Assembly (NCBI RefSeq): GCF_001677475.2 | Contig: NZ_CP015229.1 | DNA from: Escherichia coli | GTDB lineage: Bacteria > Pseudomonadota > Gammaproteobacteria > Enterobacterales > Enterobacteriaceae | Length of the DNA stretch: 64,000 bases | Direction: 5' to 3' (one strand) | In this document: in pieces, positions 30,001 to 33,000 of the stretch | How the letters are laid out: the number at the start of each line of letters is the position of its first letter | Numbering within the stretch: position 1 is the first letter of the stretch | Position numbers: made by a program

Positions 30001-33000
30001 GCTGAAAGCTTTTGGCGGAATACCGGACATTTTGCATAAGTCTGCTTGCGATATCTTCGCCCAATCAATGATTAGTTGAGCAACCCTGCCATCCAGGCCT
30101 TCTCTAATCTGCCCAAGAAGAGACATACCAGTCGAGTGTTTTAACCCAGCTACTTGCCATAGGTGTGGCGACCTGGGCTGTGATGTTGACAGTTTAAATA
30201 TTTTCATCATTACCCGCCTTCCGATAATTCAGGCTTTTCAAAATAAATATTATATTAAAAGATCAGTCATATATACGACATGCTGATATCACTGGCACTG
30301 ATTCTAATATCCAGTATTTAAACAGTTTTTCTTAAGACGAAGGTACTGTTTACCCGGAACCTGCAGAACAATTAATGAAAACTACTGGTAGAATTAAAAT
30401 GTAAGGGCAATTTTTATTATCCAACTAATAGTTTTTTTGACTAAAAGGTTGATTGGCGGCCTTATCCCCTTCTGAAAGCACTATCAAAGGGAGCAATACG
30501 ATGGTTTATTGTTGCTCCTGATATGTCTGACGGGATCCTATGGCACAGGAAAGAGATCCATGTCAAAAAACATCGAATGAACTGACCACATCAAGCGGAG
30601 GATAGCATTCTAACCATATGATTACATTAACCTTCTACTCCTCCGCACACCAGAAATTATGCCACATTTCCACATCTTAATTTCGGCCGACTTACCACCA
30701 TTGGTGTGTGATTGCTACGTAGTATCCAGTATACCCCACAGACTTAGCATGCGTTGCAATTTAAACTGGTTCCATGAATCTCCAGACAGTTGGTATCACT
30801 TACCTGAGTGATAGCCTTAACACTCGTTTTTAAACCAGCAGCTAGAACCCGATATGATTGTGTCGAGGGTCGCATGTCAGCATGATGTGCTGCCAGTCAG
30901 CTGTTCCTGCGGCGTTAACTGAATCAGGAAGACAGCCTCACTGCCGTTGCCGCTGGTGAACTCGTTGCGTCCGCGTAGGGGCAGTCATCGACGATGAAGA
31001 AAATCGGAGAGCTAAAGCTCCTGCCGGGCAAGAAAAACATGGGAAACTGGTTACTGAAAAGGTCGTTGAATATGGCTGGCAAAAAAAATAGATTATGCAC
31101 ATGCCCTTATTACCCCGGAACGGCGAATTAGACTTATCAGGCTTTGTCACGAGATCTCACATGCACAACTGCATACCATGGCCCATCCTTCGAAGAACTA
31201 GTCGGAACGTCTGTTAAACCTTCGGCAATTCAGTTTTAAAATTGATAGCAGTTAATCCCACTAAATGGTTTACCCGTTTAATTATGTCAGCAAAAACAAA
31301 AAGTTACTTTTCATGGGTATGGATAAAGTCTTAAATGCGATGTTTTACATTAAAAAGCGGACACCTCCCATCGATAAATTGTCTGCAATCTCCACAAACC
31401 CTGCTTTTCAACTTAAGAAAATGAACATTAAAAGAAAAATTTGGAAGTCCCACACTTTCGTAACTCGCATACACAAATTCATTTTTTATAAAATTGTTAA
31501 AATCACAAAAATCCACCTCACTTACCATTCTAATGGTGGCTGACAAATATGCTCTTTGCATTATCTTTACATCAATTACACGTTTCAGACCTGAAGAAGA
31601 TTTATTTTTAAAAATACTACACAGAAAATTAACCAACTCATCCTTATTTTCCAGAATCCACGTTCTGACTCTGCCATCAGAACATGGCAATAGATATACC
31701 GGAGTCTGAAATGGGTTAAAAACATCAACTACAAGTGAATAACACCCCGAAGGATTTAACCCACTCACCATTAACTCACAGAGTCCTTTAACCGCGCCAG
31801 AATAATTATCAAAGCAAACTTCGTATAAACTTTGATTGTGATGGCAACATCTTGATTCAAACTGCCATCTATGTCGAAGATAGCCAACACCTTTGATACG
31901 AATATCTTCCAGAATACAACTGTGGCAATAGCGAATTCGTGAGATGTTTACCACAGGATATGTATTTATAATATTAAATCCTTTATTGTGAGCATCTTCC
32001 ATAGCATCAAAATAGCTGTAAACTCCATATGGAGAGTAAATCATTCTGGAAGTGAGTATAAATCCATTTACTGTGGTAAGAATATCATATAAGTCCTGAG
32101 TTCTGTGTAGCTTATACACATTAATCAACTCCGGTCGTGGGTAAGCATCATATCTTAATGCACCATGCGCTGAGATAATATTCCTGTAATTTTGTATATT
32201 ATATATAATCTGAGTACGTAGAAGAAAACTGTGCCACAATTCATTTTCATATATCATATCAACCTCATTCAACTACTTAGATTTACTCATATTAATCAAA
32301 GCCATAGTAACTGGAAGCTTATCTCTGTTTTTTAATAACCAGCCATGTCCCCCCAGTACAGAATCAAGTCTTGACAGTGACAGTGAGCACTGCCCCTGAG
32401 CTAAAAAATTTTTTATTAATGATAATGAAAACTTATCCCTTTCATCCCAATTGACCCTTTTAACATTACAGCGCCGTGATTCCTTTGGTAAATAAAAATC
32501 AAGCCATTGGCTTTCAAATCTGTTTAGCCAGAAAAAACTTGCATAACAATTCGCCCTGACTACTTTTCGAGTCACAGGACCAGTGAGGCCATGCATGAAC
32601 CGCAGGATTTTTTGTTTATGACGTCGTCTTAAAGAGTCTCTTTTACATTTTTTACGCCATGAACATAATCCATAAAATGAAGAAATCACCGATGAAACAC
32701 TCCCTTCCGATAAGGAGTTTTTCTTTGCTATTGATGCTAAACTAAACCCTCTCACAGCCATGGATTTAATAAGGAACTCAGTTAATATGTTTATTTTAAT
32801 GCTACACTTATAATTCTTTACATACTTTTTATGGATTACTCCTTTAATAAAACATCTACTCTTGTTAAGTTCCTTAGCAAGAGAATTAATACTGTTATGT
32901 TTTTCACTCAGGAGGCAAAACTGGGCTGTATCATCATCAAAAGCGATGCTCTTTGATTTTTTATGGATATCGGCATGTACTGGCCATGTTATTCTTAACA

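What the first reader, a model, noticed from the sequence alone, without database searches (positions are those of the whole stretch)
31331..32272. Uncharacterised 313-aa Cys-rich protein as fifth gene of the tns operon
Its start codon directly abuts the tniQ/tnsD stop, the position TnsE occupies in canonical Tn7, but it is far smaller than TnsE and has no motif I can assign (CHSC and CGDC pairs suggest metal binding). It could be an alternative target-selection or accessory factor.
Basis: inference. Interest (0 to 1): 0.55.

Follow-up and report, generated by a model that had tools for sequence, protein, structure and literature searches.

The report
Second small TniQ target selector
The "mystery" fifth gene is a second, shortened copy of the transposon's own target-choosing protein (TniQ/TnsD family), an arrangement already described for this transposon family; its exact job is untested, but it may steer the element into one particular spot on IncHI conjugative plasmids.

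Summary
The ORF is real (minus strand, 31331-32272). Its likely start is the ATG at 32257, giving 308 aa.

- **Element:** a Tn6230-type Tn7-like transposon at yhiN, window 6290-38424, with a 5-bp duplication.
- **Core gene:** dN/dS is 0.15. ORF5 is intact in 657 complete E. coli genomes and tnsD in 656. Relatives only ~20% identical sit in the same yhiN-tnsABCD-ORF5 array.
- **Prior knowledge:** this family's "two TnsD proteins" were noted in 2012, and tandem tniQ-tnsD loci were catalogued in 2023. Function is still untested.
- **Extra finding:** the family repeatedly inserts, within a 4-bp window, at one homologous site on IncHI plasmids that has no similarity to yhiN.

My best guess, which is inference, is that TnsD serves yhiN and ORF5 serves the plasmid site. 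This is a new member of a known kind and of moderate interest.

The parts
31331..32257 (-). ORF5 coding sequence (308 aa plus stop) from the likely ATG start. The mechanical ORF extends to the TTG at 32272 (313 aa). Small second TniQ-family protein.
   Evidence: start and length; TniQ family
32263..32266 (-). GAGG Shine-Dalgarno-like motif 5 nt upstream of the ATG at 32257, inside the 15-nt gap after the tnsD stop
   Evidence: read directly from the sequence
31829..32251 (-). N-terminal TniQ domain (residues 3-143), with invariant E6, S10 and R14 in the DExxxSFxxR motif
   Evidence: Pfam PF06527, model positions 7-141 of 142; hhalign to the TnsD family, residues 1-154; invariant residues
31838..31927 (-).
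   Evidence: 40 of 40 sequences invariant; it aligns with the zinc-finger region of Tn7 TnsD and VchTniQ
31334..31795 (-). It is basic (pI 8.6).
   Evidence: AF2 secondary structure; invariance and charge; no profile similarity to TnsD beyond residue ~155
32273..33826 (-). tnsD (517 aa from the annotated start): TniQ domain plus TnsD C-terminal domain
33869..35314 (-). tnsC (AAA+ ATPase, TniB-like)
   Evidence: Pfam TniB on orthologues
35311..37437 (-). tnsB transposase
37424..38266 (-). tnsA endonuclease
38352..38424 (-). tnsA-proximal transposon end: terminal TGTTCAAAAACAATAAAGTTGT (38403-38424) plus two internal copies of the ...TAAAGTTGT repeat (38383-38395, 38352-38364)
   Evidence: it matches the published Tn6230 IRL (PMC13049778)
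38425..38429 (.). 5-bp target-site duplication (ATTGC read on the minus strand), inside the last codons of yhiN
38466..38495 (.). Conserved yhiN coding block CCACTGGAAATTATAGCCCCCCAGCCAACC, about +42 to +71 from the insertion point. It is shared with distant yhiN-inserted relatives and is the presumed selector binding site.
   Evidence: flank comparison of window, L014, L015; the binding role is inferred
6290..6311 (+). Outer distal transposon end TGTGTAGAACCAATAAAGTTGT. The flanking GCAAT (6285-6289) is the matching copy of the duplication.
19089..19110 (+). Internal extra distal-type end (TGTGTAGAGCCAATAAAGTTGT) with no matching duplication; junction between the CBASS-carrying part and the tib-carrying part

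Best explanation
ORF5 is the second, small TniQ-family protein of a Tn6230-type (yhiN-inserting) Tn7-like transposon, and it is a core transposition gene rather than cargo. Its N-terminal TniQ domain with the CCCH zinc finger would dock on the TnsC ATPase, as TnsD and CAST TniQs do. Its family-specific, basic C-terminal half, tied together by a second invariant Cys4 cluster, would supply a different target specificity from the neighbouring 517-aa TnsD. The element family has two recurrent, unrelated insertion sites: the 3' end of chromosomal yhiN, and one conserved intergenic site on IncHI conjugative plasmids. I propose that TnsD serves yhiN and ORF5 serves the plasmid site, giving a chromosome/plasmid two-pathway lifestyle without TnsE or CRISPR. 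SHOWN: gene reality, TniQ membership, fold, conservation, co-occurrence with tnsD, the two attachment sites and their similar geometry. INFERRED: TnsC docking, metal binding, which selector serves which site, and whether ORF5 binds DNA directly or through a partner.
For: - **Metal ligands.** C111, C114, C137, H140, C192, C288 and C299 are invariant in 40 of 40 sequences and C291 in 39 of 40, at 16-28% overall identity.
- **Core gene.** dN/dS is 0.15, against 0.18 for tnsD. ORF5 is intact in 657 complete E. coli genomes and tnsD in 656. Relatives 19-28% identical sit next to tnsD in yhiN-tnsABCD arrays, once on the opposite strand.
- **Second pathway exists.** An identical element on IncHI1B p08-4425.1 has a perfect CCACC duplication at a non-yhiN site. 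R478 has a perfect GGTCC duplication. RCS54-type plasmids are offset by 3 bp, and pPSV carries a different element variant at the p08 position. The IncHI1B and IncHI2 flanks are only 67-76% identical, and there is no yhiN-like sequence. The reconstructed empty sites are uninterrupted in 238 and 572 plasmid records.
- **Geometry.** Both sites have a conserved block starting about +42 from the tnsA-proximal end.
- **Literature.** In dual tniQ-tnsD loci the small TniQ is proposed to give a second selection route (PMC10293859).
Against: - No experiment links ORF5 to any target. The 2024 review states that molecular details for Tn6230 are unknown.
- The assignment could be reversed (ORF5 for yhiN, TnsD for the plasmid), or TnsD alone could recognise both sites.
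- Small TniQs characterised so far need a partner (Cascade, Cas12k, TnsF) to bind DNA, and no conserved partner gene follows ORF5. The downstream genes differ between the tib/CBASS element and the sil/pco element.
- C-terminal basicity is only weak support for DNA binding, and 7 of 40 members are not basic.
- IncHI plasmids are confined to Enterobacterales, yet the family extends to Vibrio, Shewanella and others, so the plasmid site cannot be the target for the whole family.
- I could not inspect model coordinates, so the clustering of the Cys4 residues in space is not verified.
Confidence: 0.45

Rival explanations
1. ORF5 is an obligate partner of TnsD for the yhiN pathway. The two TniQ-domain proteins form a hetero-oligomer on attTn6230 (VchTniQ works as a dimer; Tn6022 TniQ needs TnsF). 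Plasmid insertions would then use the same complex or TnsABC alone.
For: ORF5 and tnsD co-occur almost one-to-one. The two genes are tightly linked, 11-15 nt apart. Every informative yhiN-inserted relative carries both genes. There is precedent that a TniQ-domain protein alone can be insufficient, as in Tn6022 (PMC11014353).
Against: This element's TnsD has the full TniQ plus TnsD C-terminal architecture of Tn7 TnsD, and Tn7 TnsD needs no second TniQ (established knowledge on Tn7). In one relative, ORF5 sits on the opposite strand from tnsD, so operon coupling is not essential. This model leaves the highly specific plasmid site unexplained.
Confidence: 0.25
2. ORF5 is an adaptor that selects targets only indirectly. 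It binds a host- or plasmid-encoded protein or a DNA structure (as TnsE recognises replication features, or as TniQ uses Cascade or TnsF). The IncHI site would then be marked by that partner rather than read by ORF5.
For: Faure et al. propose that small TniQs lacking long C-terminal extensions signal an additional selector (PMC10293859). The conserved plasmid block contains a 7-bp palindrome with a 1-nt spacer (AGTAAAGGCTTTACT), typical of a dimeric regulator's operator. ORF5 lacks any recognisable DNA-binding domain.
Against: No conserved candidate partner gene lies beside ORF5 in the different elements. The C-terminal half is mostly basic and carries a conserved zinc-knuckle-like cluster, which is compatible with direct nucleic-acid binding.
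Confidence: 0.17
3. ORF5 is a regulator or decoy: a truncated TniQ that competes with TnsD for TnsC and damps or times transposition instead of selecting a target.
For: It keeps the TnsC-facing N-terminal domain but lacks the TnsD C-terminal domain.
Against: The C-terminal half is strongly constrained, with invariant Cys4 and W200 among others, across relatives only 16-28% identical. A simple decoy would not require that. The family needs some route to the plasmid site.
Confidence: 0.08
4. ORF5 is unrelated cargo or a decaying pseudogene that happens to follow tnsD.
For: RefSeq calls it 'hypothetical protein', and NCBIfam has no model for it.
Against: TniQ homology and fold, purifying selection, near-universal retention with tnsD while the cargo differs completely, and conserved adjacency in distant taxa.
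Confidence: 0.02

Closest known systems
Small TniQ of 'dual tniQ-tnsD' Tn7-like loci (Faure et al. 2023, PMC10293859); the second 'TnsD' of the sil/pco Tn7-like element, Tn6230 (Moreno Switt et al. 2012, PMC3401170; called TnsF in Peters et al. 2014 according to PMC11014353)
   Same: Tandem arrangement after tnsABC, with one selector over 400 aa carrying the TnsD C-terminal domain and a second of about 300 aa. Both have a TniQ N-terminal domain and CCCH zinc finger. yhiN attachment site, Tn6230-like ends, and 60% amino-acid identity to the Tn6230 copy.
   Different: This copy sits in a distinct lineage (TnsABC 80-88% and selectors 60-66% identical to Tn6230) carrying tib adhesin and CBASS cargo instead of sil/pco. 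Neither copy has a tested function. I could not read Peters 2014, so equating ORF5 with that paper's 'TnsF' is an inference.
Tn7 TnsD (glmS selector; PDB 8glu, 9bw1)
   Different: ORF5 is 308 aa against 508 aa. It lacks the PF15978 C-terminal domain and has instead its own helical and Cys4 C-terminal half.
CAST TniQ proteins (type I-F3 VchTniQ 6pif; I-B 8fcu; V-K 8rdu/7oxd)
   Same: Compact TniQ core of about 300 aa or less that bridges a target recogniser to TnsC; weak profile matches (6pif) and fold matches (8fcu, 8rdu, 7oxd).
   Different: I saw no cas genes or CRISPR array in the parts of the element I annotated (annotations and ORF maps; no dedicated repeat or CRISPR scan was run). The C-terminal Cys4 cluster is specific to this family.
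Tn7 TnsE (plasmid/replication-fork selector)
   Same: Same gene position (fifth gene, after tnsD), and possibly the same biological role of giving access to conjugative plasmids.
   Different: No sequence or fold relationship; ORF5 matches TniQ instead. Plasmid insertions of this family are site-specific to within 4 bp, unlike what is known of TnsE-mediated insertion.
Tn6022 TnsF (Orf3/TniE; XerH-like inactivated tyrosine recombinase partner of TniQ)
   Same: An extra selector-pathway gene encoded directly after a TniQ-family gene.
   Different: Unrelated protein: about 480-500 aa with a recombinase-like fold, whereas ORF5 is itself a TniQ. No recombinase hits appeared.

Membership tests
TniQ/TnsD superfamily (Pfam PF06527) | N-terminal TniQ domain detectable by profile | tested here: met
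   Pfam TniQ E=1.7e-4, model positions 7-141 of 142. 8 of 40 relatives match at E<=1e-3 and 24 of 40 at E<=0.1, best 8e-8. hhalign against the adjacent TnsD family gives 96% probability, E=4e-9.
TniQ/TnsD superfamily (Pfam PF06527) | CCCH zinc finger (C-x2-C ... C-x2-H) | tested here: met
   C111-x2-C114-x22-C137-x2-H140, invariant in 40 of 40 sequences. It aligns to the zinc-finger region of Tn7 TnsD and VchTniQ. Metal binding itself was not tested.
TniQ/TnsD superfamily (Pfam PF06527) | Fold similar to solved TniQ/TnsD structures | tested here: met
TniQ/TnsD superfamily (Pfam PF06527) | Encoded with tnsB/tnsC of a Tn7-like element | tested here: met
TniQ/TnsD superfamily (Pfam PF06527) | Binds TnsC and directs target choice | not testable with these tools
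   Needs biochemistry or a multimer model; inferred only.
TnsD proper (Tn7-type direct DNA-binding selector) | C-terminal TnsD domain (PF15978) / long C-terminal DNA-binding extension | tested here: not met
   ORF5 has no PF15978 hit, and hhalign similarity to TnsD ends at residue ~154. The neighbouring 517-aa protein does have the domain.
Dual tniQ-tnsD Tn7-like locus (Faure et al. 2023) | Two TniQ-domain genes associated with one tnsC, one over 400 aa and one substantially smaller | tested here: met
   517 aa and 308 aa in tandem; definition taken from PMC10293859.
Tn6230 family | Insertion at the 3' end of yhiN, Tn6230-like terminal repeats, 5-bp duplication, tnsABCD homology | tested here: met
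   Ends match the published inverted repeats with 1-2 mismatches; ATTGC duplication; yhiN flank. TnsABC are 80-88% identical to the J53/R478 element.
TnsE | Homology or fold of TnsE | tested here: not met
   No TnsE match in Pfam or the PDB searches; the fold is TniQ.
Tn6022 TnsF | XerH-like tyrosine-recombinase-derived fold, about 480-500 aa | tested here: not met

The most novel reading that the evidence does not exclude
A roughly 300-aa TniQ with a private Cys4 zinc module is, on its own, a sequence-specific selector for a dedicated attachment site on IncHI conjugative plasmids. Tn6230-type elements would then run two protein-guided, site-specific pathways (chromosomal yhiN through TnsD, plasmid attachment site through the small TniQ) instead of the TnsE or CRISPR route used by other Tn7-like elements. 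This would be the first small TniQ shown to read DNA without a partner.
Probability: 0.25. Interest if true: 0.6.

Novelty: new member of a known kind. Interest (0 to 1): 0.35.

Why it matters
Tn6230-type elements are in about 12% of complete E. coli genomes. They carry silver/copper resistance, mcr-9, CBASS defence and, in this window, the TibA adhesin locus. They also move between chromosomes and IncHI plasmids.

How they choose targets is acknowledged as unknown. Recognising ORF5 as the second TniQ-family selector, and pairing it with a defined plasmid attachment site, yields a simple experiment: two proteins against two short DNA sites. If the small TniQ reads DNA directly, it would be a compact, protein-only targeting module for Tn7-type integration. 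It would also explain how tnsE-less Tn7-like elements reach plasmids.

Tried and rejected
- **NCBIfam:** gave only a sub-threshold Cap3 match (E=0.027, 14.7 bits against a cut-off of 200), rejected as noise.
- **Single-sequence phmmer against PDB:** found nothing. Only the family profile reached TnsD/TniQ, and weakly.
- **Word-indexed homologue search:** returned only 5 close relatives. The exhaustive profile search was needed.
- **The search for related loci on genome contigs:** With a 10-sequence alignment it found 47 pattern matches but none confirmed by tblastn. The family is too divergent for that tool, so the co-occurrence analysis rests on exact-sequence context look-ups (7 proteins, 5 informative) and on E. 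coli genome counts.
- **Direct BLASTP of ORF5 against its neighbouring TnsD:** shows only the zinc-finger segment (E=0.008).
- **Hidden yhiN-like target at the plasmid site:** rejected. No tblastn or blastn similarity beyond chance 9-14-mers.
- **RES toxin downstream of ORF5:** I first took the ORF at 29070-29522 for the RES toxin partner of the Xre antitoxin. NCBIfam shows it is an IS256 transposase fragment.
- **Peters et al. 2014:** could not be read.

Full report
**1. Observation**

On the minus strand a 313-codon ORF runs from a TTG at 32272 to a stop at 31331-31333. It directly follows the TAG of a 523-codon ORF. Upstream lie ORFs of 481, 708 and 284 codons, all on the same strand.

RefSeq records with 100% identical DNA annotate these genes as TnsA, transposase, ATP-binding protein, 'TnsD family Tn7-like transposition protein' and 'hypothetical protein'. 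yhiN lies next to tnsA.

The annotated start of ORF5 is the ATG at 32257 (308 aa), 15 nt after the tnsD stop, with GAGG 5 nt upstream. Close homologues all start MIYENE/MVYENE there. The observation therefore stands, apart from the strand and the probable start codon.

**2. What the protein is**

- **Sequence profiles.** Pfam TniQ (PF06527) matches residues 8-148 over nearly the whole model, E=1.7e-4.
- **Homologues.** An exhaustive profile search found 119 cluster representatives, many of them 300-420 aa and matched end to end. In a 40-sequence alignment (16-28% identity to the query for most), TniQ is the only Pfam family that recurs: 24 of 40 at E<=0.1, best 8e-8.
- **Relation to the neighbour.** Profile-profile comparison with the neighbouring TnsD family gives 96% probability, E=4e-9, over ORF5 residues 1-154. 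There is no similarity after that.
- **Metal-site residues.** The invariant residues form two clusters.
- **Contrast with TnsD.** The neighbouring 517-aa protein has TniQ plus the TnsD C-terminal domain PF15978. ORF5 lacks that domain.

ORF5 is therefore a member of the TniQ superfamily but not a TnsD proper, and it is unrelated to TnsE or to Tn6022 TnsF.

**3. The element**

The tnsA-proximal end (38403-38424, TGTTCAAAAACAATAAAGTTGT) and a distal end at 6290-6311 match the published Tn6230 inverted repeats. They are flanked by the same 5 bp (ATTGC), inside the last codons of yhiN. The element is therefore 6290-38424, about 32 kb.

A second distal-type end at 19089 has no matching duplication. 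It marks the junction between a part carrying a type II CBASS and a part carrying the tib adhesin locus.

TnsA, TnsB and TnsC are 80-88% identical to those of the sil/pco Tn6230 in E. coli J53 and R478. TnsD is 66% and ORF5 60% identical.

**4. Core gene or cargo?**

- dN/dS is 0.15 for ORF5, against 0.18 for tnsD and 0.08-0.11 for tnsABC.
- Among 5,426 complete E. coli genomes, 657 have an at-least-80%-length ORF5 and 656 an at-least-80%-length tnsD.
- ORF5 stays intact where the cargo is riddled with IS elements, and the cargo differs completely between lineages.
- Relatives only 19-28% identical lie next to tnsD, twice in full yhiN(HI0933-like)-tnsA-B-C-D-ORF5 arrays and once on the opposite strand.
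- One relative is an orphan with no tns genes within 10 kb, and one contig was too short to be informative.
- Structure-based relatives span Enterobacterales, Vibrionales and Alteromonadales, and a few are already labelled TniQ.

**5. What the literature already says**

- A 2024 paper remarks that a Tn6230 gene had been named TnsF in Peters et al. 2014, and that it differs from Tn6022 TnsF (PMC11014353). I could not read the 2014 paper.
- Faure et al. 2023 counted about 1,000 dual tniQ-tnsD loci. They describe one protein over 400 aa with a much smaller second one, and propose that the small one provides a second, possibly indirect, selection route (PMC10293859).
- Movement of the sil/pco element from a plasmid to the yhiN-yhiM region has been seen in the laboratory (PMC8417528).

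**6. A second attachment site (found while testing for a second pathway)**

- **This element on a plasmid.** The very same composite element, with a 100% identical ORF5, sits on a conjugative IncHI1B Salmonella plasmid. It has the same two outer ends and a perfect 5-bp duplication (CCACC) at a site unrelated to yhiN.
- **A different variant at the same position.** The sil-type element, whose ends are 87% identical, occupies exactly that position in another IncHI1B plasmid.
- **IncHI2 and F-type plasmids.** In IncHI2 R478 the sil/pco element has a perfect GGTCC duplication. In three other plasmids the junction is 3 bp away in the same sequence.
- **Homologous locus.** The IncHI1B and IncHI2 flanks are homologous but only 67-76% identical, with the same neighbouring genes (DUF4942, DUF1173, cytosine methyltransferase, thermonuclease). 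This amounts to at least four independent insertions within a 4-bp window.
- **Empty sites exist.** The reconstructed empty sites occur uninterrupted in 238 records (IncHI1 type, including pHCM1 at 100% identity) and 572 records (IncHI2 type). Hundreds of other records are split at that point.
- **No link to yhiN.** There is no yhiN-like sequence at the plasmid site.
- **Shared geometry.** The best-conserved plasmid block (AGTAAAGGCTTTACT, a 7-bp palindrome with a 1-nt spacer, followed by AATNACTAA repeats) starts about +42 from the tnsA-proximal end. The conserved yhiN coding block starts at the same distance.

I found no description of this plasmid site in the searchable literature, but that search is incomplete.

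**7. Mechanism**

*Shown:* there are two TniQ-family selectors and two unrelated, precisely used target sites with the same geometry.

*Inferred:*
- The TniQ domain of ORF5 engages TnsC, as in the solved TnsD-TnsC and TniQ-TnsC complexes.
- Its private C-terminal half confers a second specificity. That half is basic in 33 of 40 members and carries the Cys4 cluster.
- By analogy with Tn7, the long TnsD reads the conserved coding sequence of yhiN, which leaves ORF5 for the plasmid site.

I put this model at about 0.45. The rivals are:
- ORF5 as an obligate partner of TnsD at yhiN (0.25).
- ORF5 as an adaptor to an unidentified DNA-bound partner (0.17).
- A TnsC-competing regulator (0.08).
- Irrelevant cargo (0.02).

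The last is effectively excluded.

**8. Verdict**

The finding is real, but it is a known kind of thing: the small paralogue in a dual tniQ-tnsD, Tn6230-type element, here in a lineage with different cargo. Interest is moderate. The gene's function is an acknowledged gap, and the plasmid attachment site gives a direct way to test it.

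Noticed in passing
L009 13829-13855, L011 17416-17442, L017/L022 (R478), L018-L021; not in the window itself: Tn6230-family elements use a second, precise attachment site on IncHI-type plasmids, in the intergenic region upstream of a DUF4942 gene. 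I count at least 4 independent insertions within 4 bp in IncHI1B and IncHI2 backbones that are only ~70% identical, with perfect 5-bp duplications. The empty site is present in ~800 plasmid records. A conserved palindrome-containing block lies ~+42 from the insertion point. I found no description of it in the searchable literature.
   Followed up: yes
window 19089-19110 (and 6290-6311): There is an extra internal distal-type transposon end. The 5-bp duplication pairs the tnsA-proximal end with the outer end at 6290, so the mobile unit is a composite of a CBASS-carrying part and a tib-carrying part lacking its own tns genes. The same composite, with an identical inner junction, is on plasmid p08-4425.1.
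   Followed up: partly
window 19402-26890: Type II CBASS cargo: SAVED-domain effector (19402-20949), cyclase (20955-22100), E1-E2 (22097-23932) and JAB (26417-26890). An IS66-family insertion (tnpA/tnpB/transposase, 23983-26372) separates E1-E2 from JAB. It is absent from the plasmid copy, where the two genes overlap.
   Followed up: partly
window 29070-30210: A RES/Xre-type (ParS-like) antitoxin gene (29764-30210) lacks an intact partner: the next ORF (29070-29522) is an IS256 transposase fragment. The ~1.1 kb between the antitoxin and ORF5 (30211-31330) has no ORF of 80 aa or more and may be decayed sequence.
   Followed up: partly
window ~7835-18401: The outer part of the element carries the tib locus (heptosyltransferase 11805-13025; TibA autotransporter adhesin/invasin 13018-16740, with 57-nt periodic repeats), LuxR/CaiF-type regulators, tyrosine recombinase/invertase genes and an EAL-domain gene. 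The ETEC-type adhesin locus therefore rides on a Tn7-like element that is also found on a Salmonella plasmid.
   Followed up: no
L002 15724-16033 (E. coli J53): The laboratory-derived chromosomal copy of sil/pco Tn6230 in J53 ends ~290 bp downstream of the yhiN stop. Natural E. coli copies and this window sit in the last codons of yhiN (tnsA-yhiN gap 447 bp versus 142 bp). I have no explanation for this.
   Followed up: partly
L012 10001-11248; L010 10001-10917: Some ORF5-family genes occur without tns genes nearby. One is a 415-aa orphan in a metagenome contig. Another is a split (two-ORF) copy, 27% identical, on an IncFIA/IncQ1 E. coli plasmid next to ISKpn26. These are probably remnants of decayed elements.
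   Followed up: no
L005 9001-9924: In one relative (25% identical) the ORF5-like gene is convergent with tnsD rather than co-directional. The association with tnsD therefore does not depend on being in the same operon.
   Followed up: no
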